64,000 bases of DNA from Candidatus Woesearchaeota archaeon (GTDB lineage Archaea; Nanobdellota; Nanobdellia; Woesearchaeales; GW2011-AR4): assembly GCA_016181305.1 (NCBI GenBank), contig JACOZN010000015.1, forward strand, positions 2,205-66,204, given 5' to 3'. Made by a program: the position numbers and the translations under genes. Positions 3,983-30,446 of this stretch are shown piece after piece. How positions within the stretch are numbered: position 1 is the first letter of the stretch; the number at the start of each line of letters is the position of its first letter. The notes below the pieces were generated by a model that saw only the letters and a list, made by a program, of their open reading frames with translations, ran no database searches and was not told the DNA's origin.

Positions 3983-4702
3983 ATGAAGTACAAAATATTC
4001 CATTTCAAATCCCTAGCTTCAACCCAGGACAAGGCAAAGGAATTCTCAAAAAAAGGCTTAGGCAATGTCGTCATTGTTGCAGATGTACAGACAAGAGGGA
4101 GAGGGCGCTTCAAAAGAAAATGGCACTCTGCCAAAGGAGGCTTGTGGATGTCGATCTTACTTGCACCAAAAAAAGCGGAAAATCTGCAATACCTGACATT
4201 TGCCGCGGCAATAGCAGTTGTCAAGTCCATTAAAAAAATTACAGGCATCAGCACAAAAATAAAATGGCCCAATGACGTGCATTACAACGGCAGGAAATTG
4301 TGCGGCATTCTTACAGAAGGGATTTTTCCGGCTAATTATGCTGTTATAGGGATTGGCGTCAATGTAAACCAAAGCAAATTCCCAAATGAAATAAAAAACA
4401 CCGCTATATCGCTCAAAATGATCAAAAACCAGACAATAGACATTAAAAAACTTATTGGGAATATAATTTATGAGTTTTTCAGCTTGTATAACAATTATTA
4501 CAATAAAAATCAATTCAGAAAAATATCAAAAATCTGGAAAATGCATTGCGATACAATAAACAGGGACGTAACCGCAATCACAAGAGCCGGCAGATTAAGC
4601 GGGAAGGCAATAGGCATTGATGAAGAAGGCAGACTGCTGCTGAAAACAGGCAAAAGCAATGTAGTTAAAGTTGCAGAGGGAGACATAAGCATAAGGTACT
4701 AA
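3983..4702 (+). CDS. birA: Biotin-[acetyl-CoA carboxylase] ligase
   Basis: QTRGRGRF, KIKWPNDV, KLCGILTE. Confidence 0.95.
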   Translation: MKYKIFHFKSLASTQDKAKEFSKKGLGNVVIVADVQTRGRGRFKRKWHSAKGGLWMSILLAPKKAENLQYLTFAAAIAVVKSIKKITGISTKIKWPNDVHYNGRKLCGILTEGIFPANYAVIGIGVNVNQSKFPNEIKNTAISLKMIKNQTIDIKKLIGNIIYEFFSLYNNYYNKNQFRKISKIWKMHCDTINRDVTAITRAGRLSGKAIGIDEEGRLLLKTGKSNVVKVAEGDISIRY

Positions 4703-16628: not shown

Positions 16629-17783
16629 ATGTTATCCAGCAGAGTAAAAAATATCGCGCCGAGCGCTACATTGGCAATTGATGCAAAAGCCAAGCAGCTC
16701 AGGAAATCCGGCAAGGATGTTGTGATTTTCGGGGCTGGCGAGCCTGACTTCAACACGCCTGAGAACATAAAGCTTGCCGCAAAAAAGGCAATTGACGGCA
16801 ATTTTACAAGATACACGCCTGTTGGGGGAATTCCCGAGCTCAGGAAAGCTGTCGCTGAGAAATTTCAAAGAGAAAATAATGTCAGCTATGATGTTTCTGA
16901 AATCCTGATAAGCTGCGGCGGCAAGCATTCGCTTTACAATATTGCAATGGCTGTTCTCGGCAAGGGCGACGAGGCAATCCTTCCGGTTCCTTACTGGGTA
17001 AGCTATGAAGAGATGATTAAATTGGCAGAAGCTGTACCTGTTTTTTGCAATACAGACGAAAGATTCAGGCTGACAGCTGGCATGGTTGAGGAAAAAATAA
17101 GCGATAAAACAAAAATGCTTATTTTGAACAGCCCAAGCAATCCAAGCGGGGCAATTGTTGAGCCTGATGAAGTAAGGAAGATAGCAAGGCTGGCAGCTGA
17201 TAACAATTTTTATGTTGTCTCAGACGAAGTATATGAGCATTTTGTTTATGGCGATAATAAGAGCATCAGCATAGCATCTTTAGGAGACGATATAAAGAGC
17301 CTCACAATAGTCTCAAACTCAGTCTCAAAAACCTATGCAATGACTGGCTGGCGCATAGGATACACAGCAGGCAACAATGAAATCATAAAGGCGATGGAGA
17401 ACCTGCAGAGCCATTCAACCAGCAACCCGAGCAATATTGCGCAGTATGCTGCCCTGGAAGCCCTTACAGGCCCCCAAGAGAGTGTTAAAAAAATGGTAAG
17501 GGCTTTTGACGAGAGAAGAAAATTCATTTACAAAAGGCTGAACGAGATTGATGGAATTTCATGCGTAGAGCCAGAAGGGGCTTTTTATGCTTTTCCAGAC
17601 ATAAGCGGGACAGGAATGAGCTCAATGGATTTTGCATCAAAGCTGCTTAGTGAGGCATTGGTCGCAGTCGTCCCAGGCATTGCATTTGGCTCTGACAGGC
17701 ACATAAGGCTAAGCTATGCAGCATCAATGCGCGATATTGAGCGCGGCTTGGACAGAATAGAAAAATGGCTGAAACAAAGTTAG
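16629..17783 (+). CDS. PLP-dependent aminotransferase class I/II (aspartate aminotransferase-like)
   Basis: GEPDFNTP, NSPSNPSG, SDEVY, SKTYAMTGWRIG. Confidence 0.93.
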   Translation: MLSSRVKNIAPSATLAIDAKAKQLRKSGKDVVIFGAGEPDFNTPENIKLAAKKAIDGNFTRYTPVGGIPELRKAVAEKFQRENNVSYDVSEILISCGGKHSLYNIAMAVLGKGDEAILPVPYWVSYEEMIKLAEAVPVFCNTDERFRLTAGMVEEKISDKTKMLILNSPSNPSGAIVEPDEVRKIARLAADNNFYVVSDEVYEHFVYGDNKSISIASLGDDIKSLTIVSNSVSKTYAMTGWRIGYTAGNNEIIKAMENLQSHSTSNPSNIAQYAALEALTGPQESVKKMVRAFDERRKFIYKRLNEIDGISCVEPEGAFYAFPDISGTGMSSMDFASKLLSEALVAVVPGIAFGSDRHIRLSYAASMRDIERGLDRIEKWLKQS

Positions 17784-19618
17784 ACGGGAAAAGCAGAGGA
17801 GTGCTTGACGGGCTTAAAAACAGGCACGTGGCTGACATTATTAAAAAATATGCAGATTTGTGCAAGCCGCAAAAAATAACAGTGCTTGATGACTCCAGGG
17901 AAGCAATTGAGTACGCAAAGGATCTGGCACTGAGGAATGGCGAAGAGGCGCCATTGAAGCTGAAAGGGCACACTATACATTTTGACGGCTACTATGACCA
18001 AGGAAGGGACTTGGTCAATACGCGAATAATGCTTCCAAAAGGGCTTAAATTAAGCAAGGGCATCGAAACTATAGGCAAAGGTCAGGGGCTTGGAGAAATA
18101 TCCGGGCTTCTCGACGGCATAATGGAAGGGAAAGAGATGCTTGTCAAGTTCTACTGCCTTGGCCCCAATAATTCCAAATTCTCAATCCCTGCTTTGCAGC
18201 TTACAGACTCTGCATATGTGGTGCACAGCGAGGACATGCTTTACAGGCAGGGCTATCAGGATTTCAAAAGTCTTAATGGCTCAAAAGATTTCTTCCATTT
18301 TGTGCATTCTGCAGGAAGAACTGAGAATGGGGTAAGCATTGACATTGAGAAAAGAAGGGTTTACATGGATTTGGAGGAAGAAAGGGTTTTCACAATAAAC
18401 AACCAGTATGCGGGCAATTCAGTAGGGCTGAAAAAGCTTGCATTGAGGCTTGCAATAAGCAAAGCAAACAAGGAAGATTGGCTGTGCGAGCACATGTTTA
18501 TAATGGGGGTAAAGCCTGAAGGCAGGGAAAGATTTACTTATTTTACCGGCGCATTTCCAAGCGGCTGCGGAAAGACATCAACTGCAATGGTGCCTGGGCA
18601 GGCGATCATAGGGGATGACATTGCATACATAAGGGCTGATGAAGAAGGCAGGGCGATGGCAGTCAACGTGGAGCAGGGAATATTCGGGATTATAGAGGAT
18701 GTCAATCCAGTCGATGACTCGTTAATATACAAGGCGCTCACAACTCCAAGAGAAATCATATTCTCAAATATTCTTGTCAAGGACGGGATTCCATACTGGC
18801 TGGGCATGGGCAAAGAGCTTCCAAAAGACGGCATTAATTTTTCAGGCGAATGGTATGAAGGCAAAAAAGACAATAATGGCAAAGAGATACTGCCAGCGCA
18901 CAAGAACGCAAGGTACACAATAAGGATTTCAGAGCTTGACAACGCAGACCCCAATGCTGAAAATCCTGATGGGGTGCAGATAAGTGGGTTTATTTACGGC
19001 GGAAGAGACTCTGATACGAATGTGCCTGTTTTCCAGTCATTGGGCTGGGCTCATGGAGTTTTTGTAGGCGGAGTGATTGAATCCGAGACAACAGCGACAA
19101 CAACTGCGGCAGTAGGGGTAAGGAAGCACAACCCCATGTCAAATATCGAATTTTTGACAGTTCCTCTGGGAGTGTATATAGACAACCACATGAAATTCGG
19201 GGAAGCCCTTGACGAGCCTCCTTTAATTTTTGCAACGAATTACTTCTTGAAGGAGGACGGGAAATTCCTCAACCAGAAAACAGACAAGAAAGTGTGGCTT
19301 TTGTGGATGGAAGGAAGGGTTCATGGCGAGTATGGCGCGATTGAAACTCCGATTGGATTCATACCAAAATATGAGGATTTGAGAGGCTTATTCAAAGAGG
19401 TTTTTGAAAAAGAGTACAGAAAAGAGGATTACGACAGGCAGTTTTCAATAAGGGCAAAAAAGCTTCTTGAAAAGCTTGACAGGGCTGAAGAAATCTACAA
19501 GCCAGAGGACAATATCCCGGAAATATTCCACAGGCATATCGGGCAGCAAAGGGAAAGGCTAAAGGAAGCCATGGAAAAGCATGAAAGCGATGTTATTTTT
19601 CCATTTAAGTTTGAGTAA
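17765..19618 (+). CDS. pckG: GTP-dependent phosphoenolpyruvate carboxykinase
   Basis: YAGNSVGLKKLALR, CEHM, AFPSGCGKTS, GDDIA, HKNARY. Confidence 0.9.
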   Translation: MAETKLDGKSRGVLDGLKNRHVADIIKKYADLCKPQKITVLDDSREAIEYAKDLALRNGEEAPLKLKGHTIHFDGYYDQGRDLVNTRIMLPKGLKLSKGIETIGKGQGLGEISGLLDGIMEGKEMLVKFYCLGPNNSKFSIPALQLTDSAYVVHSEDMLYRQGYQDFKSLNGSKDFFHFVHSAGRTENGVSIDIEKRRVYMDLEEERVFTINNQYAGNSVGLKKLALRLAISKANKEDWLCEHMFIMGVKPEGRERFTYFTGAFPSGCGKTSTAMVPGQAIIGDDIAYIRADEEGRAMAVNVEQGIFGIIEDVNPVDDSLIYKALTTPREIIFSNILVKDGIPYWLGMGKELPKDGINFSGEWYEGKKDNNGKEILPAHKNARYTIRISELDNADPNAENPDGVQISGFIYGGRDSDTNVPVFQSLGWAHGVFVGGVIESETTATTTAAVGVRKHNPMSNIEFLTVPLGVYIDNHMKFGEALDEPPLIFATNYFLKEDGKFLNQKTDKKVWLLWMEGRVHGEYGAIETPIGFIPKYEDLRGLFKEVFEKEYRKEDYDRQFSIRAKKLLEKLDRAEEIYKPEDNIPEIFHRHIGQQRERLKEAMEKHESDVIFPFKFE

Positions 19619-19619
19619 A

Positions 19620-19988
19620 ATGAAAATTAAGGTTATTTCTGGCAATTTAAACGCAGTGGCTGAATTGAAGAATACCGCTACAGCAAAGGCAGTCTACAAT
19701 GCGCTGCCTATTGAAGGCGCTGCAAACAGATGGGGCAACGAAATCTATTTTCCCATTCCGGTAAATCTTGATGCAGAGCCTGATGCAAAAGAGGTTGTTG
19801 ATGAGGGAGATGTTGCTTATTGGGTTGAAGGAGCCTGTTTTTGCATTTTCTGGGGGAAAACTCCTGCCTCAAAAGGCAGTGAGATAAGGGCTGCATCAAA
19901 GGTTAATGTTTTTGGAAAGGTAAAGGGAGATGCTAAAATTTTTAATAAGGTTAAGAATGGCGATTTAACAATCTTGGAGAAGGCATGA
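19620..19988 (+). CDS. Cyclophilin-like fold protein (DUF369/TM1367-like)
   Basis: ALPIEGAANRWGNEIYF, GDVAYW, CIFWGKTP; in-frame ATG at 19620. Confidence 0.8.
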   Translation: MKIKVISGNLNAVAELKNTATAKAVYNALPIEGAANRWGNEIYFPIPVNLDAEPDAKEVVDEGDVAYWVEGACFCIFWGKTPASKGSEIRAASKVNVFGKVKGDAKIFNKVKNGDLTILEKA

Positions 19989-21094
19989 AAAAGCAGTTGT
20001 CAAGCCTGGATTTGCATTTTTTATTGAAAGAACTGGATATTCTGAAAGATTCAAGGGTTGACAAGATATACCACCCGGAAGAAAACTTGGTTATTTTCAG
20101 CCTTTATAAAACCAATGCCGGGAAGAAATTATTGAGAATTGAAATAGGAAAAGTGCTGTTTATTGCAGAAGAAAAAGAGCAGTATGAAGAGATTTTAGGA
20201 TTTGGGCAGCTGCTGAGGAAGCATCTTGACGGATATTTTTTAGTTGATATACGGCAATTAAAGCCCGAGAGAATAATCAAAATCACTTTTAAAGCAAAGG
20301 AGGAAACAAAACACCTTTATCTTGAATTCTTCGGCAAGGGCAATGCAATTTTATGCAGTGAGCATGATGTAATTATAAACGCGCTTGAGCACCATGAGTT
20401 CAGGGAAAGGGCTGTAAAGCCTAAACTGAAGTATGTTTATCCCGTAATGAATTATAACGTATTTGAAATCAATGAAAAACAATTGCAGGATTTGTTAAAA
20501 AACTCCAAAAAAGACAGCCTTGTGACAAGCTTGGCAACAGAATTGGGGTCGGGCGGCTTGTACTCCGAGGAAATATGCCTGTTGTCCAATATAGATAAAA
20601 ACATCAGCCCAAAAAATATCGGCGATGAACAAATTCATTCAATATCAAATTCAATTAAAAGAATAATTAATCAAAAAATCGATGCTAACGTGATTTTTGA
20701 CAACGGCAATGTCATTGATTTTGCCCCTTTTAATTTTAAATATTACGAAAAGCACAAAAAGCAGGAATTCAAGACATTCAGCGAAGCTCTTTCATTCTTT
20801 TACTCGCAATTCAAGGAGGTGAAAGAGTCTGCAGCAGACAAAAAAATAAAGGAATTGCAGAGAATTACAGAAAGCCAGAAGCGGACGATAGACATGCTAA
20901 GAAAGGAAGAGCATGAATTAAGGCAGAAAGGAGAGATGATCTACCACAATTACCAATTGATAAAAGAAGTGCTTGACGAAATAAACAAAGCCTCAAAGAA
21001 ATACTCATGGAAGGAGATAAAAGAGAAGCTGAAAGGGCATAAGATTGTGAAAGAGGTTAATGAAAAAGATAGGAAGGTTGTGGTGGAGATTTAG
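19985..21094 (+). CDS. NFACT/Rqc2 N-terminal and coiled-coil part (no NFACT-R domain)
   Basis: LSSLDL, LRKHL, ERII, LEFFGKGNAIL, GLYSEEIC. Confidence 0.8.
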   Translation: MKKQLSSLDLHFLLKELDILKDSRVDKIYHPEENLVIFSLYKTNAGKKLLRIEIGKVLFIAEEKEQYEEILGFGQLLRKHLDGYFLVDIRQLKPERIIKITFKAKEETKHLYLEFFGKGNAILCSEHDVIINALEHHEFRERAVKPKLKYVYPVMNYNVFEINEKQLQDLLKNSKKDSLVTSLATELGSGGLYSEEICLLSNIDKNISPKNIGDEQIHSISNSIKRIINQKIDANVIFDNGNVIDFAPFNFKYYEKHKKQEFKTFSEALSFFYSQFKEVKESAADKKIKELQRITESQKRTIDMLRKEEHELRQKGEMIYHNYQLIKEVLDEINKASKKYSWKEIKEKLKGHKIVKEVNEKDRKVVVEI

Positions 21095-21423
21095 GAAAAG
21101 TTCACATAACGTACAATATTTCACGAGGTTTTTTCCCCACAAAATTTTCCCTCGTGAGCAAATTTCGGCAACCCATGAAATTTGCGATAGAGCTGGAAAA
21201 TTTTGAGAGATGGAAAAAACTTAGTAAAAATCGGGAAAATGCTTGGCATTTTAGCGTTAGCGACCGATTTTTCCGTGAAATATGTGTTATATTCGTTTTC
21301 CATACAAAGTGTGGGAAACCTGCGTCCGCAGACTTTTTTAGACACCGTAAATCTGAGAGGCACTGTAGTTTTTACAATAGATTTCTGCGAAGCAGAGTAG
21401 ATGTCCGTAGGACTGAGGGGGGC
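21095..21423. repeat. Left boundary element: seven conserved blocks plus hairpin inserts (inverted homolog of 29111-29296)
   Basis: Blocks at 21095-110, 21283-294, 21332-346, 21345-354, 21354-364, 21367-381 and 21415-423 match the right end in reverse complement and in the same order. Confidence 0.85.
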
Positions 21424-21455
21424 TGTTTTTGGTTCTTTTTCTGAAAAAGATGGAA

Positions 21456-22952
21456 TTACTTAAATTTAGATAAGAATTTCACAAAATAATATTTATCCCT
21501 TAAAAGCTTTTTTAATTCATTACGGTCAAAAATAATCATATCCTTTGGAGCATGAACCAATCTCTTATCTTTATTTGTTATTAGAATTTGACTTTTAACA
21601 TCAACATCAGGGAGGAATCTAATTTTTTCTTTAAGAGTCTCCTCAATCAGTTTTGTTTGATAAATGTCTTCTGATAACTTATCTTTATCTTTTTTGTATA
21701 TTAACTGGGTTTTCTTCCTAAAAAGTTTTAATTCGAGATGATATATTATTCCTTCATAATTTATCGTATAATCTGCAATACGATCTCGTATTTTCTTTTC
21801 TTTCTGAAACTCAATGTTATTTTCCTTAAATATGAACTGAAGATAATTTGAAAACACTATTTCATTCATATTATCTATGTCAGTCAGCCATGTTGACTCC
21901 TGATAGTTTTTTATTTCATCTTGTCTGATTTCCGGAAATAAAACTCTCAAGGCCCTTAAATCAGCTTCAATAAAACAAACCCCATCTTTAGATATAAATG
22001 TAGTAATGTTGTCGTTCTGATTTACATAAACTTTCTCATAATCTTTAAACAATTCAAAAGTATCTACATTAAGTAGTTTCTCATCAAATCCGATAAAAAT
22101 AATCCTATTGTTTTCAATAAGTTCTACTTTTCCGATAAATTCTTTACCATTAATTTTTTGCCTTTGGCTTTCATACTTCAATTTAAACCATAAACCTTGT
22201 TTTTCTGAGAATTCTGGGAAATCTGTCATGTTCTTATTTTGAAATCTTTTTTTCATTAGTTTGAAATACCTTGTCAGTTCTTGTTGTCCTGCTAATTTGA
22301 ATATTTGAATGTAGTGATTTGTTTTAATAATAAGTTTTGAGAATCTATCAAAATTTCTATTATCTGATGATGATGGATCAATTAACCTGCTCAATACCCC
22401 AATCTCGTTTATGGCTGCAATTCTTATATCAGCATTTCTGGAGTTTTTTTGGGTTCTGGCCCTATTAACCTCAGATTGTGGAATATTGTCAAAGCTCCCC
22501 TTAGATTCACAAACAATTGATTCTTCATTACTTGTCATTGCTTCAAAATCTGCACGTTTCCAAGGTCCTTTAAGTTTATTCATTGAATTTTCTTGCACAT
22601 TAAATAAACTACTTACAAGGCATCGGCTCAATCCTTCTCCAATTATTTCTGCCGCTTGACCTTTTTGTTCGCTATCCATATCAGATATTTCAAAACTTAA
22701 ATAAATTCCATTTGTAATTCGTTTGATATATGGTAAATAATCGTTGAACTTTGTTCTTCGAGAACTACTGATTTTACTCATTGGTTTTGATAGGTGCATT
22801 TGATATGCTAATTCAAATAGGTTTATCTGAACATCAAAAGGAATATTTTGTTGTTTATCTGAAAACAATCTAGTAAATATAATTGATGGAAATTGTTCTA
22901 GTCGTGCGCTCACTTGTTTATTTCTCCATCTTGTAAAAATATAATCAAGCAT
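21456..22952 (-). CDS. Putative nuclease with two PD-(D/E)xK domains
   Basis: RADF...IVCESKGS (N-terminal half) and IADY...YHLELK (C-terminal half). Confidence 0.6.
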   Translation of the reverse strand: MLDYIFTRWRNKQVSARLEQFPSIIFTRLFSDKQQNIPFDVQINLFELAYQMHLSKPMSKISSSRRTKFNDYLPYIKRITNGIYLSFEISDMDSEQKGQAAEIIGEGLSRCLVSSLFNVQENSMNKLKGPWKRADFEAMTSNEESIVCESKGSFDNIPQSEVNRARTQKNSRNADIRIAAINEIGVLSRLIDPSSSDNRNFDRFSKLIIKTNHYIQIFKLAGQQELTRYFKLMKKRFQNKNMTDFPEFSEKQGLWFKLKYESQRQKINGKEFIGKVELIENNRIIFIGFDEKLLNVDTFELFKDYEKVYVNQNDNITTFISKDGVCFIEADLRALRVLFPEIRQDEIKNYQESTWLTDIDNMNEIVFSNYLQFIFKENNIEFQKEKKIRDRIADYTINYEGIIYHLELKLFRKKTQLIYKKDKDKLSEDIYQTKLIEETLKEKIRFLPDVDVKSQILITNKDKRLVHAPKDMIIFDRNELKKLLRDKYYFVKFLSKFK

Positions 22953-23072
22953 TTATACACCCATTTAATCTGATTTTCTTTGCTATCTTTAATAACTTTA
23001 CTTAGTAAAAGTATCGTTAAATTTAAATAGAAGCACATTTAAGGTTATATATACATAAATGGGTTGGTGGTT

Positions 23073-23219
23073 ATGGCAAAACGAACAATATCGTTAAGTG
23101 TAGAAGAAGAAATCTATGATGAATATAGGAAATTCTGCGAGAAAAAAGGTATTATCTTATCAAAGCAATTTGAGAACTTTATGGCTGAGGAATTAGAGAA
23201 GAATAAATCAAGGTCTTAA
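23073..23219 (+). CDS. Small ribbon-helix-helix regulator (48 aa; not in the ORF track)
   Basis: Manual translation MAKRTISLSVEEEIYDEYRKFCEKKGIILSKQFENFMAEELEKNKSRS; stop lies 2 nt before the mod start. Confidence 0.75.
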   Translation: MAKRTISLSVEEEIYDEYRKFCEKKGIILSKQFENFMAEELEKNKSRS

Positions 23220-23221
23220 TA

Positions 23222-24934
23222 ATGGCAAAGAAAGATTATTCCAATTGGTCAAAAGAAGAACTGGTTAGGGAGTTAAAGAAAGTTGAAAAGAGAAAAAAAT
23301 ATGGAATGGTTTGGGAAGACAAGCCCGAAAAAGTAGCTGAATTATGCAAAGAAAAACTGCCTGTCTTGGAAGAGGACACAAAGAAAGAAATTAAAACAGA
23401 CGATAAAAAGCCAGTCAATATTCTGATAGAAGGCGACAATTATCATGCTCTTTCTGTTTTGAACTACACCAATAAAGGATTAATTGATGTTATCTATATT
23501 GATCCTCCATACAATACAGGAAAAAAGAAAGAATGGAAATATAACGACCATTATGTTGACAAAGAAGACTCATACAGACACAGTAAATGGTTAGATTTTA
23601 TGAGTAAAAGACTAAAATTGGCTAAGCCTTTACTTCGTAATAATGGCTTGATATTTATCTCCATCGATGATAACGAGATAGCACAATTAAAATTATTGTG
23701 CGATTGGATATTTGGAGAAAAAAACTTAGTTGCAAATTTTGTTTGGAGGACTGCTGGTAATTTTGATAATCAAGCAAAAGTGAAGATTTGTCATGAATAT
23801 ATTTTGTGTTATGCGAAGAATATAAAAAACATTAAAGCTCCAAAGATAATTGACCCAAATATTGATGTTCAAAGTAAATTATTCAAAGACGAAATAAGAA
23901 ATACTATAGTAAAAAACGGGCCAAAAAACCCTATAAGCGAGATTAGGTTACCACCAGGGATGCCTGCTTCTTTTAAGGAAGGTGTTATAAAGAAGAGAGA
24001 CACTGCGTGGCCCCATTATGATAAGGATGCTATCGTGAAAGATTACCAATTACAAAATGAAATTCTAATTAAGAGTGGGTGGAGTTCAAAAAATTTGTTC
24101 GAGACTTTCTTGAATACCAGTTTTTCTCCAGTAGTTGATATTAAAGGACAAGAATCGTTGTTTGAAATTAGCACAACTGGAGCAATAGAAGTTGTGAAAA
24201 AAAGAAGTGAGGATCAGAGTCATGTTTTATCTGTCCTAACTAACCTTGGAAACACCCAGTCAACTAGCCAATTTTTGAAGAAAATTGGTGTGAGCTTTAC
24301 ATATCCAAAGCCAGTAGAGTTGATAAAATATCTTATCAATATGAATACTTCTAAAAACCCAGTAGTATTAGATTTCTTTGCTGGCTCTGGGACAACAGGA
24401 CAATCTCTTCTTGAGATTAATAAAGAATTTAAAAAAAATGGGAGGTTCATTCTTTGTACCAACAATGAAGATAGTAATGGAGATGGAAACAAGATACTTA
24501 GTGATATTTGCTATCCTAGACTAAAAAAAGTAATACGAGGTGATAGCTTCATAGCAAAGTTAGGGGGAAACCTCAAATATTTTAAAACTGATTTCGTCGA
24601 TGCTGGGCCAACAGACGAGAATAAACGTAAGATGGTTGATAAATCTACGGAAATGCTCTGCCTAAAAGAAGATTGCTTTGAAGAAGTCATGCAGAGTAAA
24701 AAATTCGGAATTTTCAAAAATGTCCAAGAAAAATATTTAGGAATAATCTATGATGATGACGGCATTGAGCCATTCAAGAAAGAAGCTAAAAAGTTAAAAA
24801 AGCAGTTTGTTGTGTATGTGTTCTCTCTTGATGAAAGCGCAAGAGAAGACGAGTTCGAAGATGTCTATGATTTGGTTGAGTTAAGGCCAATTCCGGCAGT
24901 CATACTAAACGTTTACAAGAGGATATTCAAATGA
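23222..24934 (+). CDS. mod: Type III-like RM DNA methyltransferase (Mod)
   Basis: LIEGDN, IYIDPPYNTG (motif IV), YPKPVEL, VLDFFAGSGTT (motif I). Confidence 0.92.
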   Translation: MAKKDYSNWSKEELVRELKKVEKRKKYGMVWEDKPEKVAELCKEKLPVLEEDTKKEIKTDDKKPVNILIEGDNYHALSVLNYTNKGLIDVIYIDPPYNTGKKKEWKYNDHYVDKEDSYRHSKWLDFMSKRLKLAKPLLRNNGLIFISIDDNEIAQLKLLCDWIFGEKNLVANFVWRTAGNFDNQAKVKICHEYILCYAKNIKNIKAPKIIDPNIDVQSKLFKDEIRNTIVKNGPKNPISEIRLPPGMPASFKEGVIKKRDTAWPHYDKDAIVKDYQLQNEILIKSGWSSKNLFETFLNTSFSPVVDIKGQESLFEISTTGAIEVVKKRSEDQSHVLSVLTNLGNTQSTSQFLKKIGVSFTYPKPVELIKYLINMNTSKNPVVLDFFAGSGTTGQSLLEINKEFKKNGRFILCTNNEDSNGDGNKILSDICYPRLKKVIRGDSFIAKLGGNLKYFKTDFVDAGPTDENKRKMVDKSTEMLCLKEDCFEEVMQSKKFGIFKNVQEKYLGIIYDDDGIEPFKKEAKKLKKQFVVYVFSLDESAREDEFEDVYDLVELRPIPAVILNVYKRIFK

Positions 24935-27114
24935 TAGAGTTAAGAGACTATCAGAAAAAGGCAGTTGAAAGTCTTAAATCCAAAGTCCAGAATGTTCTGA
25001 ATACTCCGGACAATGAAGTCGTTATTTTCCAAGCACCGACAGGAAGTGGCAAGACGGTTATGGTTTCTGAAATGCTTAAACAATTAGTTAAGGAGAACCA
25101 TAAAAGATACTCTTTTGTCTGGGTTTCTGTCAGAATGTTGCACGAGCAAAGCAAGGAGAAATTAGAGAAATATTACGAAGATGACAGGTTAATCCAATGC
25201 TCCTATTTTGAAGATTTGGATGACAGACAGATTGGGGAAAATGAGATTTTATTTATAAATTGGCACAGCATTAACAAGAAAGACATTAATATTTATGTCA
25301 GGGAAAACGAGCAGGACAATAACTTAAACGCAATTATCCAAAATACAAAAGAAGAAGGCAGAGAAATAATCTTAATCATAGATGAAAGCCATCATACTGC
25401 GAGTTCTGAAAAGTCAAAAGAATTAATTGAGACAATCGGGCCAAAAGTGACTATTGAAGTTTCAGCTACTCCACACTTAAAAGAAAATGTTTCTGAGATT
25501 GAAAGAGTACACATCTCACAAGTCAAAGCTGAAGAAATGATAAAATCAGAAATAGCAGTAAATCCCGAATTTATGGATATAAAAATTGGCTCAAAAAGTT
25601 CAGACGAGTTAATCATAGAACAAACATTAAAGAAAAGAGTGGAATTAGCAAAGTTTTATGAAAAAGAAGGCTCAAACATAAATCCACTTGTTCTTGTTCA
25701 GCTTCCAGACCAAAAAGGCAATTTAATCAACAAAAAAGACGATGTTGTAAAAATACTCAAAGACAAGTTCAAGATAACAGAAGAAAACGGAAAACTGGCA
25801 GTATGGCTTTCAGAAGAAAAAACCGATAATCTGGCCAATATTGACAAAAACGACAATGAAGTGGAAGTTTTAGTTTTCAAACAGGCCATAGCTCTAGGCT
25901 GGGATTGTCCGAGAGCACAAATTCTTGTCATTTTCAGAGAATCAAAAAGTTTCACATTTACCATTCAAACAATAGGCAGAATAATGAGAATGCCAGAATT
26001 GAAATACTACAATGAAGAGGATTTGAATAAAGGTTATGTCTTTACAAACCTGCCGAATATTGAGATTACAGAAGATTACGCAAAAGACTATGTTACAATT
26101 TATGAAGCAAAAAGAGACAGCAAACTCTACAAAGAAATTTCTCTGCCGTCCATTTTCCTGAAAAGGCAAAGGGAAAGAACAAGATTATCCGGGAAATTCG
26201 GAGATATTTTTATGAAAGTGGCAGAAGAAATAAATCTCCAGAAGAAGATTACTACCAAGCCATCAAGAACAGTAAGCCCGATTATTGCTGATGGCAGAAT
26301 TGTAAACATTGACCAATTGGGAGAAATTGAAAGGAAAGGACAGATTGAAGTCCAACTCAATTTAACAGAATTGCAGCAGTTATTTGACAAGTTTATCGCC
26401 GACAACTGCACGCCATACGCACCAGCAGATTCAAGCGATAGAATGAAAACAGCAATTTACAACTTCTTCACACAAAAATACAAACTCAGAAAGTTTGATC
26501 CGCAAGCCCAAAGAATAGTCTTAGGAAAGGAAAACGTGCAGGCATTCGTAGATATCATTAACATAGCAAAAGAACGCTACAAAAAAGAAGTTGTAGAGAA
26601 AATAAATGAAAAGCGAGAGAAAAAAGAAATACCCAAATGGGAGGTTCCTGTTATCATCAGTTATAACAGCAGATATTCCAAAGAAGAGCATCCGACTTCG
26701 ATAATGAAGCCATTTTACACCAAGAAGCCAAGTGAGCCGGAAAGAAAGTTTATAGAATTGCTCAATAAATCAAAAAAGGTGAAATGGTGGTTCAAGAATG
26801 GTGAAACCGAGATAAAGTATTTCGCTGTTCCATATATTGACGAAAACGGCTTTGAGAGAGCGTTCTATGTTGATTTTATCGTGCAGTTTACAGATGGCTC
26901 TATCGGCCTGTTTGACACAAAAGGCGGAATGACTGCAAAAGATGCAGGGTCAAGAGCCGAAGGATTGCAGAAATATCTCAAGAAAAATAAAGATAAGAAA
27001 GTTTGGGGCGGAATTGCTATTTTTGTAAATGGAACATGGCGTTACAATGACAAAGAAACATATGAGTATAATCTTAATGACTTGTCGAGTTGGAAGATAT
27101 TAGATATTATATAG
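24931..27114 (+). CDS. res: Type III-like restriction subunit (SF2 helicase + C-terminal nuclease)
   Basis: QAPTGSGKT, IIDESHH, GWDCPRA, QTIGRIMR, FYVDFIV...FDTKG; ATGA overlap with mod. Confidence 0.88.
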   Translation: MIELRDYQKKAVESLKSKVQNVLNTPDNEVVIFQAPTGSGKTVMVSEMLKQLVKENHKRYSFVWVSVRMLHEQSKEKLEKYYEDDRLIQCSYFEDLDDRQIGENEILFINWHSINKKDINIYVRENEQDNNLNAIIQNTKEEGREIILIIDESHHTASSEKSKELIETIGPKVTIEVSATPHLKENVSEIERVHISQVKAEEMIKSEIAVNPEFMDIKIGSKSSDELIIEQTLKKRVELAKFYEKEGSNINPLVLVQLPDQKGNLINKKDDVVKILKDKFKITEENGKLAVWLSEEKTDNLANIDKNDNEVEVLVFKQAIALGWDCPRAQILVIFRESKSFTFTIQTIGRIMRMPELKYYNEEDLNKGYVFTNLPNIEITEDYAKDYVTIYEAKRDSKLYKEISLPSIFLKRQRERTRLSGKFGDIFMKVAEEINLQKKITTKPSRTVSPIIADGRIVNIDQLGEIERKGQIEVQLNLTELQQLFDKFIADNCTPYAPADSSDRMKTAIYNFFTQKYKLRKFDPQAQRIVLGKENVQAFVDIINIAKERYKKEVVEKINEKREKKEIPKWEVPVIISYNSRYSKEEHPTSIMKPFYTKKPSEPERKFIELLNKSKKVKWWFKNGETEIKYFAVPYIDENGFERAFYVDFIVQFTDGSIGLFDTKGGMTAKDAGSRAEGLQKYLKKNKDKKVWGGIAIFVNGTWRYNDKETYEYNLNDLSSWKILDII

Positions 27115-27132
27115 CTAAGTAATTCGTATGGG

Positions 27133-28158
27133 GTGGTTCAGATGTCATCAAAAGAAATAATGAAAAAAATCACTGATTTTATGCCAGAGTTTAAGAACAG
27201 AATAGATGAAATCTCGATAGAAGATATAGAACCTAACCCTTTTAACCCCAGAAAGAAGTTTAGTCAAGAAAAAGAGGATGAACTTATAGAATCTATTGCC
27301 CAGATGAAAATTGTACTTCAGCCAATTATAGTTTATGAAAAAATCCGTAAACAAGAGAAGAAATACATAATTCTTGACGGACAAAGAAGGTATCAAGCGT
27401 GTAAGAAACTCGGAATTGATAAAATTCCTGCCCATATTCTGGTAAAGGAACCAACTTATGTTGAAAATTTATCAATTATGTTCCACATCCATAATGTTCA
27501 TGAAGATTGGACCGATTTAGCTATTTCTACCACAATACCAGAGTTATGTCGAGAATTGGAAATTGATCCTCAACATCCAACTAAAGAAGGTATGCAGAAT
27601 ATTAAAAAATTAACCTCGCTATCAATGTATAAGCTTAAGAAATACTTTGATGTCTTAACTTATTCTGATGAAATTATTAAAGAATTCAGAGAAGCAGAGT
27701 TAAAAGAAAAACCAGATTTAGATGTGGATATTTTATCTGAATTAAAAAGCCCCTTGAAAAAAATTAGGGCACTTATGTCATCTTCTATGAAAATAGAGTA
27801 TTCAAAAGAGAAAATTGTTAAGATTATTGTTGAAAAAAAGAAAAACAAAGTAATTACAACAAACAAACAAATAAGAAAATTATCAAAAATTGCTATGAAT
27901 GTAAACAGGGGGAAAGTCAATAAACAAGTTGCAATTGAGAGAATTAAAGATTTTCTCGACAACAAAGAAGTTACAATTGATGATATCTATTCAGACACAT
28001 CTGAGGCAATTGAACAAGCAAAAGGTATAATCAAGAATTCTGAAAAATTACGGAAGGAAATAGATAACATTGATTTAAGGAAATTGCCCAATGAAGATAA
28101 GAAGAGTCTAAGTACCGAACTAAAAAATCTTAATGAGTCTATTAAAAGAAAGTTTTAG
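27133..28158 (+). CDS. ParB/Srx N-terminal domain protein
   Basis: IEPNPFNPRKKF, LQPIIV, ILDGQRRYQAC. Confidence 0.8.
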   Translation: MVQMSSKEIMKKITDFMPEFKNRIDEISIEDIEPNPFNPRKKFSQEKEDELIESIAQMKIVLQPIIVYEKIRKQEKKYIILDGQRRYQACKKLGIDKIPAHILVKEPTYVENLSIMFHIHNVHEDWTDLAISTTIPELCRELEIDPQHPTKEGMQNIKKLTSLSMYKLKKYFDVLTYSDEIIKEFREAELKEKPDLDVDILSELKSPLKKIRALMSSSMKIEYSKEKIVKIIVEKKKNKVITTNKQIRKLSKIAMNVNRGKVNKQVAIERIKDFLDNKEVTIDDIYSDTSEAIEQAKGIIKNSEKLRKEIDNIDLRKLPNEDKKSLSTELKNLNESIKRKF

Positions 28159-29106
28159 GTGTGGAAAATGGATGAGAAAGAGATTCTTAAAAAATTGTCT
28201 CATCATTTAACAAGAGAAGGTTATCCTCATATATCAATTAATCCGTTTTTGAAAACTCTTGGCTGGTCTTTTGATCTCTATGCCGAAAGTAAGAATAATG
28301 CAGTTGCTATTGAATACAGAAAAAATGATAACGTTCCAAAAATATTTTTTGATAGAGTAGCTAGCATCAAAGGGCAAAAGAGGATTCTAAAAATATATCT
28401 GCTATTTGAGAAAACTCCAAAAGCATCAGCATTTAAGTCTCTGAAAGAGGCTGGAATTGGAATTATTATATTTCAAAAACAGAGGTTTTATATCTTTTTA
28501 GAATCAAAAGACTTTTCCAAGAGACCAATTTCTAAATCAAAAGCAAAGAAAAGCATCAAGAAGATTAAGTCAATGCCTCAAATATGGGTCTACCCATGCT
28601 CGAAACAGTATGAATCTGACGAAAAAACATTATGTAAGGAGAGAGACAAAATCTGTAAAATTGTACGGAGATATCAAAGAAAGCAAATACCAATCGGCTA
28701 TAAGTTAGTGGAAAATGACAAGAAAGATGATAAATATTTTAAAAAGCAAATTATTCGTAATTTGAGAGAAAGTCATATCTTCATTGCTGCAATTAATGAA
28801 AGATATAGTGAATATATTGATTTTGAAATAAGCAACGTGTTTGATATTATTAAGGATAAGATGCTGATTCTTATAATGAAAAAAGATATGTCAGAAAATG
28901 ATATAGAAGAAAAAGAACTGGATACAGAACAAAGAAATATTAAGAGAGCCAAACAAATAAAATTGATAAAATTTGCACAGGATAAAACAAAAACTATCTC
29001 TTATTCAGGATTAAGAGAATTTGAAGAGAAAGTAGATACGTTTTTGGTAAAAATGATTGTTCGATTACATGAAAAAAATAAAGTTAAATCCCCTTTCTCA
29101 TACTAG
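28159..29106 (+). CDS. Restriction-endonuclease-like domain fused to a TIR-like domain
   Basis: SFDLYA...AVAIEYRK; C-terminal half IIRNLRESHIFIAAINERYSEYIDFEI resembles the TIR core with a Glu at the catalytic position. Confidence 0.5.
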   Translation: MWKMDEKEILKKLSHHLTREGYPHISINPFLKTLGWSFDLYAESKNNAVAIEYRKNDNVPKIFFDRVASIKGQKRILKIYLLFEKTPKASAFKSLKEAGIGIIIFQKQRFYIFLESKDFSKRPISKSKAKKSIKKIKSMPQIWVYPCSKQYESDEKTLCKERDKICKIVRRYQRKQIPIGYKLVENDKKDDKYFKKQIIRNLRESHIFIAAINERYSEYIDFEISNVFDIIKDKMLILIMKKDMSENDIEEKELDTEQRNIKRAKQIKLIKFAQDKTKTISYSGLREFEEKVDTFLVKMIVRLHEKNKVKSPFSY

Positions 29107-29110
29107 TTAT

Positions 29111-29296
29111 GCCCCCCTCTATCTAATGTAAAAACTTAGGAGAACGTAGTGAACTGTATAATCTCTCGTTATGCGAATCTCTTTGAGTTTGCATTTTTAA
29201 GATTATACGAAAGTGCCTCTCAATAAAGATTTACGGCGTAAGCCTCTCTATAGGTGTCTAAAAAAGTGAATATAACACAGTTATGGCGAACTTTTC
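29111..29296. repeat. Right boundary element (inverted homolog of 21095-21423)
   Basis: GCCCCCCTC 29111-119, TCTAATGTAAAAACT 29122-136, AGTGCCTCTCA 29212-222, AGATTTACGG 29227-236, GGTGTCTAAAAAAGT 29253-267, GAATATAACACA 29268-279, GTTATGGCGAACTTTTC 29280-296. Confidence 0.85.
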
Positions 29297-29338: not shown

Positions 29339-29361
29339 GCGCCTTTTCTTCCTCTTTGCCT

Positions 29362-29501
29362 TGGACGGCCATAGGGGCTTGGTTCACCCGATCCCATCCC
29401 GAACTCGGATTAGGTTAAGGAGTTGGCCTACGAGAGAGTTAAGCAAGCCTCCGTTTCCAGTCGTACTGTACTTACGTACGGGAGCCTGGAAAAGCTGTCC
29501 A
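29362..29501 (+). rRNA. rrf: 5S rRNA gene containing a 27-nt insert (29410-29436)
   Basis: Helix I TGGACGGC/GCTGTCCA, GGCCATAG, ACCCGATCCCATCCCGAACTCGGA, AGTTAAG, helix II GGGGCTTG/CAAGCCTC, helix V TTTCCAG/CTGGAAA. Confidence 0.95.
29410..29436 (+). other. Putative bulge-helix-bulge mini-intron in 5S rRNA
   Basis: Inner 8-bp hairpin TAGGTTAA/TTGGCCTA, bulge GA^T, 4-bp central helix CTCG/CGAG, bulge AG^A; joining the exons gives CTCGGA-AGTTAAG. Confidence 0.75.
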
Positions 29502-29507
29502 CCTTTA

Positions 29508-30185
29508 TTATTCGAATGGGATCATCAACTCCATCTTTATTTTTTTAAATTCTTCAACATTTCTAGAATTAGCCCCATACGATTTAACCATCAAATCCAG
29601 TTTTCTTGCTTTTTTTGGATGTTTAAAATATATTTCCTCTTTAAATTTTATTATATTCTCTTTTCCTGTAATACTCAACACATAAGAATTATCTTTTATG
29701 CTATTTGGCTTAGTCCTAATTATCTTGTTAGAGTTTATGTCAAAGTCAAGAAGCATTAGTTTAACTTCTTCCAATAACTTTAGTGAATTTGAGGTTAATG
29801 TTATGTTCCTTTTCCACTCATTGCCCTTAAAAAATAATCTCAAGGCCGCGCAACCTTCATCATCATACAAAGCTCTCAAATATTCTTTTTGAACCTGTTT
29901 ATCAGCACTTTTTATGGAATTTGGTATATACAATACATCACTTCTGAAATCAGGAAGATGCTCCAAGAATTTATGTATTATCCTATTTCCATGTATTTGT
30001 AAAAATTTAACCCCAGAATTATTTTTTCCATGACTAAACTTTATATCACCAAATTCCGTAATAATATCATTTTTAAATTCTTCAAGCAAAACTTCACAGG
30101 TATTGCTGTAACGTATATATCTATAATATAAATTACCATCACCACTTATTTTAGCCAAGCATCTTGCGAAATTCTTTGAAATCAT
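29508..30185 (-). CDS. Two-motif LAGLIDADG homing endonuclease
   Basis: [11 protein letters not shown] and [10 protein letters not shown] helices; AT-rich; the stop abuts the 5S 3' end. Confidence 0.85.
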
Positions 30186-30376
30186 TTAAATCACTGATTC
30201 CTTGATGTTGAAACTGCGTAAATGATTTTGGTTTAAATATTATATGTGAGAATGTCCAGTGCTTATTTTCTATATAGAAAACAAAAATCATAATTTGGTA
30301 ATTGAGACTTACCTTAAGTGATTTAAATGTAGAATGAAGCAAGATGTAATGGCTTTAAGTGATTGTTTTATTATTA

Positions 30377-30446
30377 AGTTAAGCAAGCCTCCGTTTCCAG
30401 TCGTACTGTGCTCAGCACGGGAGCCTGGAAAAGCTGTCCACCTTTA
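30377..30446 (+). pseudogene. Orphan duplicate 3' half of 5S rRNA
   Basis: Direct repeat of 29437-29507: 33 and 30 identical nt flank a helix IV tip that differs (ACTTACGT vs GCTCAGC). Confidence 0.92.

What the first reader, a model, noticed from the sequence alone, without database searches (positions are those of the whole stretch)
21095..29296. Defence island bounded by inverted ends made of seven conserved blocks with different hairpin modules inserted in each copy
Seen: 21095-21423 and 29111-29296 share, in reverse complement and identical order, seven blocks of 9-17 nt: GCCCCCCTC, TCTA(A/T)TGTAAAAACT, AGTGCCTCTCA, AGATTTACGG, GGTGTCTAAAAAAGT, GAATATAACACA and GTTATG(T/GC)GAACTTTTC. The spacers between blocks are unrelated and differ greatly in length. 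For example, the F-G spacer is 0 nt on the right and 172 nt on the left, and the B-C spacer is 2 nt on the left and 75 nt on the right. The long spacers fold back on themselves. The left end starts on the base after the NFACT stop. There is no recombinase inside and no clear target duplication. Inference: these are the ends of a non-autonomous cargo element recognised in a folded single-stranded form (attC- or HUH-like logic), or two copies of an undescribed structured RNA family. I do not recognise this architecture from any named element.
Basis: partly seen in the sequence, partly recalled or inferred. Interest (0 to 1): 0.85.

Follow-up and report, generated by a model that had tools for sequence, protein, structure and literature searches.

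The report
Recombinase-less defence cassette with dif-like ends
The two inverted ends are real: they are the conserved left and right junction modules of a family of swappable anti-virus gene cassettes in groundwater Woesearchaeota, which carry no recombinase and are bounded by sites built like the chromosome-resolution site dif, so they probably move by borrowing the host XerA enzyme.

Summary
All seven blocks lie in the same order at 21095-21423 (- strand) and 29111-29296 (+ strand), and five of them occur nowhere else in the 1.07-Mb genome.

The two ends are not random variants. They are a differentiated left type and right type, each 84-95% identical to counterparts in sister genomes and metagenomes. 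At least 14 such pairs flank unrelated cargo of 1.8-12 kb, nearly all restriction-modification or other defence genes. No recombinase and no shared protein family was found in the cargo.

The same NFACT|5S site holds different cargo in a relative, a solo 35-bp palindrome in three genomes, and nothing in three others.

The outermost arms covary between the two termini. When joined, they form 11-(5-7)-11 palindromes of about 28 bp, 9-10/11 identical per arm to published Xer substrates. The 172-nt "insert" is itself bounded by such sites.

Xer-like tyrosine recombinases are the only recombinase family present in nearly all of these genomes.

Best reading: an archaeal, chromosomal analogue of Acinetobacter dif modules or IMEX elements. 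The mechanism is inferred, not shown. Strand-biased G.U pairs and TATA boxes leave open that the ends are also transcribed.

The parts
19985..21094 (+). Left flank: the NFACT_N gene (369 aa), intact. Its stop codon abuts the element.
   Evidence: Pfam match 2.7e-49. Orthologues are 369-384 aa across the genus.
21095..21110 (+). Outer left arm (block G', GAAAAGTTCACATAAC). The 11-nt core arm AGTTCACATAA lies at 21099-21109.
   Evidence: The homology boundary is sharp in four genomes. The arm covaries with the right arm across elements. It is 9/11 identical to the published Xer arm ATTTCGCATAA.
21111..21282 (+). Nested 172-nt module 'Z'. Its outer stem pairs 21116-21125 with 21274-21283. Its inner hairpin has the conserved loop GGCAACCC at 21167-21174.
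   Evidence: Found next to the left arm in at least 15 copies. At least 10 different fully Watson-Crick stems sit under the same loop.
21270..21297 (+). Internal 11-6-11 site: TTTCCGTGAAA TATGTG TTATATTCGTT. It joins module Z to block F'.
   Evidence: Read directly from the sequence. It has the same architecture as the solo sites.
21283..21450 (-). Left-type end proper. It holds blocks F, E, D, C, B and A with small hairpins (a 37-nt and a 33-nt insert) and a CTTTTTCAGAAAAAG hairpin.
   Evidence: Block coordinates. It is 84-91% identical to left ends in G016, G036 and metagenome loci.
21456..22952 (-). Cargo ORF of 498 aa, with no family match.
   Evidence: No hit in Pfam, NCBIfam, PADLOC or PDB sequences.
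23222..27114 (+). Cargo: Type III restriction-modification pair, Mod (570 aa) and a Res-like helicase (727 aa).
   Evidence: N6_N4_Mtase 1.6e-37 and ResIII 3.4e-25. PADLOC MTase_III 5.9e-80 and REase_III 3.5e-17.
27133..29106 (+). Cargo: a ParB_N/GmrSD_N-like protein (341 aa) followed by a 315-aa ORF with no match.
   Evidence: ParB_N 5e-18. No hits for the 315-aa ORF.
29111..29296 (+). Right-type end (blocks A to G).
- Helix P1: 29134-29142 with 29246-29255.
- Hairpin P2: 29155-29164 with 29200-29209.
- Terminal hairpin: 29262-29276 with 29280-29295.
   Evidence: It is 88-95% identical to right ends elsewhere. In the consensus fold 94.7% of cells are paired, 5 pairs show double changes, and about 11% of cells are G.U.
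29266..29293 (+). Hybrid core site at the right boundary: AGTGAATATAA CACAG TTATGGCGAACT.
   Evidence: Read from the sequence. The same layout is seen at the right boundary of 7 elements.
29361..29503 (+). Right flank: the 5S rRNA gene. It carries an insert that is the subject of another finding.
   Evidence: Rfam RF00001, 35.4 bits, E 1.6e-5.

Best explanation
Window 21095-29296 is one member of a family of non-autonomous defence-gene cassettes in a groundwater Woesearchaeota genus.

**Anatomy**
- Each cassette has a conserved left-type and a conserved right-type junction module of about 190-350 bp. Each module is a set of conserved blocks plus small palindromic sub-modules.
- The outermost 11-16 nt of the two modules are the two halves of a 28-bp palindromic core site, AGTTC....AA - 5-7 nt - TT....GAACT. 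This is the architecture of Xer/dif sites.

**Proposed mechanism (inferred)**
- A circular cassette carrying its own core site (arms = block F) recombined with an intact core site that lay just after the NFACT stop codon.
- This left hybrid sites at both borders.
- Smaller modules, such as the 172-nt Z module, later entered the hybrid sites in the same way. This would explain 'same blocks, different inserts'.
- A host Xer-like tyrosine recombinase acting in trans would catalyse these steps. G000 has two: XerA on C12 and a paralogue on C5.
- The conserved blocks A-E would act as accessory sequences. They may also serve as terminators or insulators, and possibly as a transcribed RNA.

**Shown versus inferred**
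- Shown: the family, the boundaries, cargo turnover, empty and solo alleles, arm covariation, site architecture and recombinase distribution.
- Inferred: the circular intermediate, the crossover point and the identity of the enzyme.
For: 1. **Same end pair, different cargo, different flanks.** This holds for G016:C20, G036:C3, G036:C1, G016:C6, G016:C30, G015:C11, G013:C8, G007:C222 and metagenome loci L209 and L211-L214. The ends are 84-95% identical, while the 5S gene and flanking genes are 73-78%.
2. **The same NFACT|5S site in a relative holds an unrelated cargo.** L209 and L218 have the same ends around a different 4.4-kb cargo.
3. **Alleles of the site.** G017, G013 and G012 are empty. 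G014, G020 and G022 have a solo palindrome. G014 has the arms of G000 joined: GAAAAGTTCACATAAC-GTT-GTTATGTGAACTTTCC.
4. **The outer arms covary across 2-7 kb.** Observed pairs are CACATAAC/GTTATGGCG, CGTATAAC/GTTATACG, CGTGAAAC/GTTTCACG (twice) and CATTTAAC/GTTTAATG. The same inner module sits next to different arm cores.
5. **Solo sites fit the Xer/dif layout.** There are 10 in 8 of 43 genomes (17 strand-hits against 5 for the reversed control). They read 11-(5-7)-11 and are mostly perfect palindromes. This matches archaeal dif as described in PMC2958812. Arms are 9-10/11 identical to the Xer substrates in PMC7399989 Table 1.
6. **Cargo.** It is defence or restriction-modification in nearly all elements, with no shared protein and no recombinase. 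Cargo GC is 30-37% against 41-45% in the flanks.
7. **Recombinase distribution.**
   - Xer-like genes are in 38/43 genomes.
   - G000 C12 scores 268 bits against the XerA_Arch cut-off of 220.
   - Y1 HUH genes are in 23/43 genomes but absent from G000, G016 and G015.
   - IS110 is in 6/43 and serine recombinases in 1/43.
Against: - No excision or circular junction was seen. An intact F-F' palindrome is absent from 43 genomes and from IMG/VR.
- The central regions of the putative partner sites differ: CGTTG, CACAG and TATGTG. The left border has a constant 9-nt centre, CGTACAATW, which is too long for a canonical Xer overlap.
- The arms differ from the candidate true dif (G000 C10:13630, GGTATACTTAA...), sharing 7/11 positions.
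- Four elements at unrelated loci share the same slightly imperfect arm pair (CACATAAC with GTTATGGCG). So the arms may travel with the element rather than come from the target.
- Empty sites for the other loci in G000 show no solo hairpin.
- Some elements break the arm rule (L211, L212, L213).
- Strand-biased G.U pairs point to a single-stranded or RNA role that a purely double-strand model does not need.
Confidence: 0.5

Rival explanations
1. The ends are genes for a family of structured small RNAs. Each would have its own promoter and a hairpin plus T-tract terminator, and would be transcribed on the + strand at the right end. The cargo would be exchanged by homologous recombination between these conserved non-coding 'homology arms', with no site-specific step.
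For: - In the right-type consensus fold 94.7% of cells are paired, 5 pairs have double changes, and about 30 of 265 cells are G.U. Those G.U cells would be A.C on the other strand.
- No shuffle out of 500 reached the observed covariation score.
- Small GGC-GNRA-GCC hairpins are present.
- Canonical TATA boxes lie about 25-30 nt upstream in G016, G036 and G027 copies.
- A T-tract follows the terminal hairpin at most loci.
- Cargo is replaced between unchanged ends at one locus.
Against: - No Rfam family matches.
- Homologous recombination cannot place the pair at new loci with unrelated flanks. It also cannot make solo palindromes from inverted copies.
- The outer arms covary with each other even where the local hairpin is poor (L056).
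- The Z-module stems are almost purely Watson-Crick: 154 pairs, about 1 credible wobble, and 24 further non-Watson-Crick cells in doubtful stem extensions.
- For the left end the better-folding strand is the inward one, opposite to its promoter-like side.
- Many genomes of the genus have no copy, so this is not a housekeeping RNA.
Confidence: 0.2
2. This is a classical terminal-inverted-repeat transposon, a cargo-carrying MITE-like element, mobilised in trans by a DDE-type transposase. The solo palindromes would be minimal derivatives.
For: - There are 16-nt terminal inverted repeats with sharp boundaries.
- The element occurs at many unrelated loci.
- There is a published precedent for restriction-modification units flanked by long imperfect inverted repeats (PMC2853133).
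Against: - No target-site duplication appears at any of 9 well-defined insertions, whereas the published cases have 8-bp duplications.
- The variable core of the arms covaries within an element yet differs between elements in one genome (G016, G036). One trans-acting transposase does not explain that.
- No autonomous element with these termini was met in any locus examined.
Confidence: 0.1
3. The element moves as single-stranded DNA. Its ends would be recognised as folded hairpins on one strand, as in IS200/IS605 or PATE elements with a Y1 HUH enzyme, or as in integron attC bottom-strand recombination.
For: - Wobble pairs favour the same (+) strand at both ends.
- Stems covary under conserved loops.
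- There is no target duplication.
- Modules are nested in hairpin apices.
Against: - Y1_Tnp is absent from G000, G016, G015 and G020, which carry elements or solo sites.
- No conserved tetra- or pentanucleotide lies at the left flank.
- The ends are inverted, not co-oriented, and no cassette array in one orientation is present here.
- No tyrosine recombinase lies on this contig.
- The strand bias of the left end rests on only a few positions.
Confidence: 0.12
4. The blocks are chance similarity or decayed remnants of a known IS end or gene.
For: None was found. Two cargo ORFs remain unannotated.
Against: - The blocks are unique to the two sites in 1.07 Mb.
- Both ends are conserved at 84-95% in other genomes and metagenomes, inserts included.
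Confidence: 0.01

Closest known systems
Acinetobacter plasmid dif (pdif) modules (e.g. PMC6449649, PMC7399989, PMC13141974)
   Same: - Discrete cargo units without a recombinase.
- Bounded by 28-bp 11-6-11 Xer-type sites whose arms face each other.
- The same sites occur with different cargo, and modules sit next to or inside one another.
- Movement is ascribed to host Xer proteins.
- Arm sequences are 9-10/11 identical to published substrates.
   Different: - The host is archaeal, with a homodimeric XerA-type enzyme rather than XerC/XerD.
- The element is chromosomal, not on Rep_3 plasmids.
- Cargo is restriction-modification or defence, not resistance genes.
- Each border carries 190-350 bp of conserved, structured, differentiated left or right sequence rather than a bare 28-bp site.
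- The left border has a 9-nt centre.
IMEX elements (CTXphi, VGJphi, TLCphi, gonococcal genetic island; PMC5357621)
   Same: - Integrative elements that carry no recombinase and use host Xer.
- Tandem or nested integration at hybrid sites.
- Attachment sites only partly like dif.
   Different: - IMEX elements insert at the chromosome's own dif. This element lies at a site after the NFACT stop codon that is empty in some relatives and differs from the candidate dif.
- There are no phage or conjugation genes.
Transposon-like restriction-modification units flanked by long imperfect inverted repeats (Furuta et al. 2010, PMC2853133)
   Same: - Restriction-modification genes of all types lie between imperfect inverted repeats.
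- There is no transposase inside, and action in trans is suspected.
   Different: - Those units have 8-bp target duplications and repeats private to each unit.
- Here there is no duplication, and one end family serves many cargoes.
Integron gene cassettes and attC, including integrons reported in Archaea (PMC9668308)
   Same: - Swappable cargo.
- Structure-conserved, sequence-variable palindromic sites.
- A Xer-related tyrosine recombinase.
- An AAC...GTT core resembling the R''/R' boxes.
   Different: - No adjacent IntI or attI platform.
- Multi-gene cargo.
- Ends are inverted rather than one attC per cassette in a co-oriented array.
- AAC/GTT lies at the apex of the hairpin, not at its base.
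cer and psi plasmid resolution sites with accessory sequences
   Same: A Xer core site is joined to about 200 bp of conserved accessory DNA. That DNA is thought to bind architectural proteins and set the direction of the reaction.
   Different: Those sites resolve plasmid multimers and do not bound mobile cargo. The accessory role of blocks A-E here is only an inference.

Membership tests
Xer-dependent dif modules | The unit is bounded by 28-bp core sites: two 11-bp inverted arms and a central region of about 6 bp. | tested here: met
   - Solo sites read 11-(5-7)-11.
- The right border site is 29266-29293 and an internal site is 21270-21297.
- Caveat: the left border site 21099-21129 has a 9-nt centre.
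Xer-dependent dif modules | No recombinase gene lies inside the unit. | tested here: met
   Pfam, NCBIfam and PADLOC were run on the window cargo. Pfam was run on 20 proteins from 6 other elements. The remaining elements were read only by ORF inspection. No protein family is common to the 14 cargoes.
Xer-dependent dif modules | The host encodes the Xer recombinase. | tested here: met
   Xer-like genes are in 38/43 genomes. The G000 C12 protein scores 268 bits against the XerA_Arch cut-off of 220.
Xer-dependent dif modules | The same sites occur with different cargo, and the same unit occurs in different contexts. | tested here: met
Xer-dependent dif modules | Xer proteins bind the sites and recombine them. 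| not testable with these tools
   This needs purified XerA or its paralogue with site oligonucleotides, or an in vivo recombination assay.
IMEX | The element integrates at the host chromosome's dif site. | tested here: not met
   The site follows the NFACT stop codon and is empty in G017, G013 and G012. The candidate dif lies elsewhere (C10:13630) and has different arms.
Integron cassette / attC | An IntI gene and attI lie beside a co-oriented cassette array with one attC per cassette. | tested here: not met
   No tyrosine recombinase lies on contig C21. The ends are inverted and the cargo is multi-gene. No Rfam hit was found.
IS200/IS605 and PATE elements | A Y1 HUH transposase is available, and the element inserts 3' of a fixed short target. 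| tested here: not met
   Y1_Tnp is absent from G000, G016 and G015. The left-flank bases are not conserved.
IS200/IS605 and PATE elements | The hairpins of both ends act on the same strand. | tested here: inconclusive
   The wobble bias favours the + strand at both ends, but for the left end it rests on about 5 positions.
TIR (DDE) transposon or MITE | Terminal inverted repeats together with a target-site duplication. | tested here: not met
   Inverted repeats are present. No duplication is seen at any of 9 insertions.
Any Rfam RNA family | A covariance-model match at or near the gathering score. | tested here: not met
   Nothing reached the gathering score in the window. Only chance-level hits appear at either end.

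The most novel reading that the evidence does not exclude
The conserved left and right junction modules may be more than passive accessory DNA. They could be strand-specific structured nucleic acids, as RNA or as a single DNA strand. In that form they would take part in the reaction, for example by presenting the core site or by pairing with the partner. This would make the system an RNA- or structure-assisted cassette-exchange system based on XerA, used by DPANN archaea to trade defence genes.
Probability: 0.12. Interest if true: 0.9.

Novelty: new variant of a known kind. Interest (0 to 1): 0.74.

Why it matters
- Xer-exploiting cargo modules are known from bacteria, as Acinetobacter plasmid modules and IMEX elements. 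I found no paper describing them in Archaea.
- If XerA moves these cassettes, genome-reduced DPANN archaea would have a cheap way to swap restriction-modification and other defence genes without dedicated integrases.
- It would also explain part of their strain-level variability.
- The core sites with their long structured junction modules would become a testable substrate set for archaeal Xer biochemistry.
- The family also gives a practical marker for finding defence islands, and unknown defence genes, in Woesearchaeota metagenomes. The 498-aa and 315-aa ORFs here are two such unknowns.

Tried and rejected
**RNA and repeat searches**
- Rfam found nothing at the gathering score and only noise at E up to 10. 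No tRNA or tmRNA is present.

**Hypotheses rejected**
- NFACT truncated by the insertion: rejected, because about 370 aa is the native length.
- A small peptide encoded in the right end (AGGAG followed by GTG): rejected, because the frame is not kept in G036.
- Target-site duplication or a conserved target motif: none.
- Covariation between the arm core and the stem of module Z: none.

**Searches for free or viral forms**
- An intact F-F' palindrome, the expected circular junction, is absent from all 43 genomes.
- IMG/VR has no copy of the E+F block or of the left junction.
- A loose pattern scan of genome contigs gave mostly chance hits, though it did reveal the taxon.

**Empty sites for the other loci**
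- For G016:C20, G036:C3, G036:C1, G016:C6 and G015:C11, G000 has either other genes or diverged flanks at the matching place. No clean empty site was obtained.

**Candidate enzymes that do not co-occur with the elements**
- Y1 HUH, IS110 and serine recombinases.

Full report

Yes. The seven blocks lie in the same order on opposite strands at 21095-21423 and 29111-29296. Blocks B, E and G occur nowhere else in the 1,073,004-bp assembly even with one mismatch. C and F are unique as exact matches.

The left end begins on the base after the NFACT stop (TAG 21092-21094). NFACT is not truncated, because 369-384 aa is its length throughout the genus.

**2. What lies between the ends**

| Coordinates | Strand | Product | Evidence |
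|---|---|---|---|
| 21456-22952 | - | 498-aa ORF, no match | |
| 23222-24934 | + | Type III methyltransferase | |
| 24931-27114 | + | ResIII-type helicase/restriction subunit | |
| 27133-28158 | + | ParB_N/GmrSD_N-like protein | |
| 28159-29106 | + | 315-aa ORF, no match | |

GC is 30-37% inside, against 41-45% in the core genes beyond the NFACT 3' end and the 5S/LAGLIDADG stretch. No recombinase domain was found.

**3. The ends are a family, in two types**

The organism is a Candidatus Woesearchaeota MAG lineage from groundwater (record titles).

- The whole left end, with all its 'inserts', is 86-91% identical to stretches in G016:C20, G036:C3 and G036:C1.
- Each of those stretches is paired 4-6 kb away with a copy of the right end (88-94% identical) in the same inverted arrangement.
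- The 5S gene and a flanking gene of G036 are only 73-78% identical to the window.
- More pairs were found in genus genomes (G016:C6, G016:C30, G015:C11, G013:C8, G007:C222) and in JGI metagenome contigs (L209/L218, L211, L212, L213, L214).
- That makes at least 14 elements of 1.8-12 kb.
- The outside flanks are unrelated housekeeping genes: ribonucleotide reductase/GlyRS, TYW1-like, Hef, aCPSF1 and TyrRS/RFC.

**4. Cargo turns over**

Cargo proteins are unrelated between elements apart from methyltransferases and a small wHTH protein. No family is common to all. Their content was read by Pfam for 20 proteins from 6 other elements and by N-terminal motifs for the rest. It includes:

- Type I, II and III restriction-modification systems;
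- C5-methyltransferase with Vsr;
- GmrSD-HNH, Mrr and Abi_alpha;
- a PLD nuclease;
- a DEAD/MZB helicase with DprA.

In metagenome contigs L209 and L218 the NFACT and 5S flanks are syntenic with the window (82-94% identical). The ends are present (81-94% identical), but the 4.4-kb cargo is wholly different.

**5. Alleles of the NFACT|5S site**

- G017, G013 and G012 have the 5S promoter 42-52 nt after the NFACT stop and no trace of the element.
- G014 is the closest relative, with an almost identical 5S gene. It has only TAG-GAAAAGTTCACATAAC-GTT-GTTATGTGAACTTTCC, followed by the same flank as the window. That is the two outermost arms joined.
- G020 has GAAAGTTCGTGAAAC-GAAT-GTTTCACGAACTTTT.
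- G022 has AAAAATTCGCCTAAC-AAAG-GTTAGGCGACATTTTT.
- Other species hold 0.5-3.3 kb of other content between related termini. G016:C30, for example, has a GmrSD-HNH gene.

**6. The outer arms behave as two halves of one palindrome**

- Across elements the variable core of the left arm is matched by the right arm 2-7 kb away. The pairs are CACATAAC/GTTATGGCG, CGTATAAC/GTTATACG, CGTGAAAC/GTTTCACG (two loci) and CATTTAAC/GTTTAATG.
- This holds even where the local hairpin at one end is poor, as in L056.
- The same inner left module (84-91% identical) sits beside different arm cores.
- By contrast, the inner blocks are not homogenised between the two ends of one element. In G016:C20, blocks C, D and E differ between left and right.
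- A pattern scan of the 43 genus genomes found 10 solo sites in 8 genomes, with 8 different cores. Most are perfect palindromes. The scan gave 17 strand-hits against 5 for the reversed control.
- Where the context was read, solo sites lie directly after a stop codon: NFACT in three genomes and aCPSF1 in G028.

**7. Site architecture**

Read as AGTTC....AA / 5-7 nt / TT....GAACT, the solo sites are 11-(5-7)-11, and six are exactly 28 bp.

- This is the layout of Xer/dif sites. Archaeal dif sites are described as 11-bp arms with few or no mismatches and a 6-bp spacer, with conserved flanking repeats (PMC2958812).
- The arms are 9-10/11 identical to published Acinetobacter Xer substrates (PMC7399989 Table 1):
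  - AGTTCGTATAA against ACTTCGTATAA;
  - AGTTCGCATAA against ATTTCGCATAA;
  - TTATGGCGAAC against TTATGCGAAAT.
- In the window:
  - the right border is AGTGAATATAA-CACAG-TTATGGCGAACT (29266-29293);
  - the 172-nt 'insert' Z is bounded by AGTTCACATAA-CGTACAATA-TTTCACGAGGT (21099-21129) and by TTTCCGTGAAA-TATGTG-TTATATTCGTT (21270-21297).
- So the left end is a small module nested between two-armed sites. This is the pattern expected from repeated integration into hybrid sites, and it resembles arrays of dif modules.

**8. Which enzyme?**

| Family | Genomes with a match (of 43) | Note |
|---|---|---|
| Xer-like tyrosine recombinase | 38 | 1-4 copies per genome |
| Y1 HUH transposase | 23 | absent from G000, G016, G015, G020 |
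| IS110 | 6 | |
| Serine recombinase | 1 | |

- G000 has three tyrosine-recombinase genes. C12 (271 aa) scores 268 bits against the XerA_Arch cut-off of 220. C5 (260 aa) scores 210 bits. The third is a 389-aa integrase-like protein on C19.
- None lies on the window's contig.
- A candidate true dif is G000 C10:13630, GGTATACTTAA-GTATAT-TTAGGTATACC. It is single-copy and recurs in single copy in four other genomes. It shares 7/11 arm positions with the element's arm.
- The enzyme assignment is therefore an inference by exclusion and by site architecture.

**9. Structure and strand**

- The hairpin in Z with loop GGCAACCC has at least 10 different stems under the same loop. There are 154 Watson-Crick pairs. 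Only about 1 wobble lies in a credible stem, and 24 further non-Watson-Crick cells lie in doubtful stem extensions. This looks like DNA-level palindromy.
- The right-type end gives a consensus fold on the + strand.
  - It has 34 pairs, and 94.7% of cells are paired.
  - Five pairs have changes on both sides.
  - No shuffle out of 500 reached its covariation score.
  - About 11% of cells are G.U.
  - Helix P1 (29134-29142 with 29246-29255) links the two 'unrelated spacers'. The left type lacks both strands of P1.
- For the left type the + strand also folds somewhat better. The mirrored consensus energy is -79.7 against -72.3 kcal/mol, and wobble sites run 4 to 1.
- TATA boxes lie upstream of several right and left ends. 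A T-tract follows the terminal hairpin at most loci.
- A transcribed or single-stranded role is therefore not excluded. I give it as the main rival and as the novel case.

**10. What argues against the best reading**

- No circular or excision junction was seen.
- Reads could not be consulted.
- The centres of the putative partner sites differ.
- The left border centre is 9 nt.
- Four elements at different loci share the same slightly imperfect arm pair.
- G000 shows no solo site at the empty counterparts of other loci.
- L211, L212 and L213 have deviant arms.

**11. Comparison with what is known**

- The closest functional analogues are Acinetobacter dif modules and IMEX elements.
- The closest descriptive precedent is the set of restriction-modification units between long inverted repeats in PMC2853133, which however have 8-bp target duplications.
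- Integrons, including archaeal ones, differ in platform, orientation and cassette size.
- I found no paper on Xer-exploiting cassettes in Archaea.
- Notes from earlier agents of this scan reached a similar Xer/dif-cassette reading for other DPANN genomes. I saw them after forming my own reading. They are not independent evidence.

**12. Verdict**

- The finding is real and more than chance.
- It belongs to a genus-wide family of recombinase-less defence cassettes with differentiated, structured, dif-like ends.
- I put the family and its mobility at about 0.75.
- I put the Xer-type site-specific mechanism at about 0.5.

Noticed in passing
window 29361-30446: The 5S rRNA gene scores below the Rfam gathering score because of an insert. 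A LAGLIDADG_3 gene (29508-30185, - strand) lies just behind it. The relative L218 lacks window 29507-30376. Another finding of this scan already covers this.
   Followed up: no
window 17774-19617: The PEPCK gene (617 aa, 17765-19618) is missing from the otherwise syntenic metagenome contig L209. There, window 17774 joins directly to window 19617. This is a clean gene-sized indel between related populations.
   Followed up: no
G000 C10:13630-13657 (outside the window): GGTATACTTAA-GTATAT-TTAGGTATACC is a candidate chromosomal dif site. It is an 11-6-11 site, single-copy, and recurs in single copy with no more than 3 mismatches in G016, G030, G014 and G011.
   Followed up: partly
G000 C15:139960 and C18:59760; also L006 and L011: The motif CCACTGGACATC(T/C) recurs about 15-25 nt upstream of TATA-like boxes of unrelated genes. 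It may be a genus-specific promoter-proximal element.
   Followed up: no
L064 (G063:C8) 4330-4701: An IS5/IS1182-like transposase gene with a DUF772-type N-terminus is inserted right after the Z module of a left-type end, interrupting that element.
   Followed up: no
G000 C7:18662-27197 (outside the window): At the locus where G036:C3 carries a cassette, G000 has 8.5 kb of different sequence and no dif-like ends. Likewise, G000 C15:138933-139966 holds an unrelated ORF of about 290 aa where G015 has a cassette. These intergenic spots are variable with or without the ends.
   Followed up: partly
L023 9005-9280, L024 13508-13753, L213 1876-2139: Small wHTH proteins of 81-91 aa (HTH_45 / HVO_A0261_N-like) recur in three cargoes next to restriction-modification genes. 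They may be controller (C) proteins.
   Followed up: no
loci L089-L166 (Faecousia and Oscillospiraceae MAGs): The loose pattern AAGTTCNNNNAACGTACAAT hits dozens of contig ends in two gut Bacillota MAGs. This suggests an unrelated high-copy repeat that breaks their assemblies.
   Followed up: no
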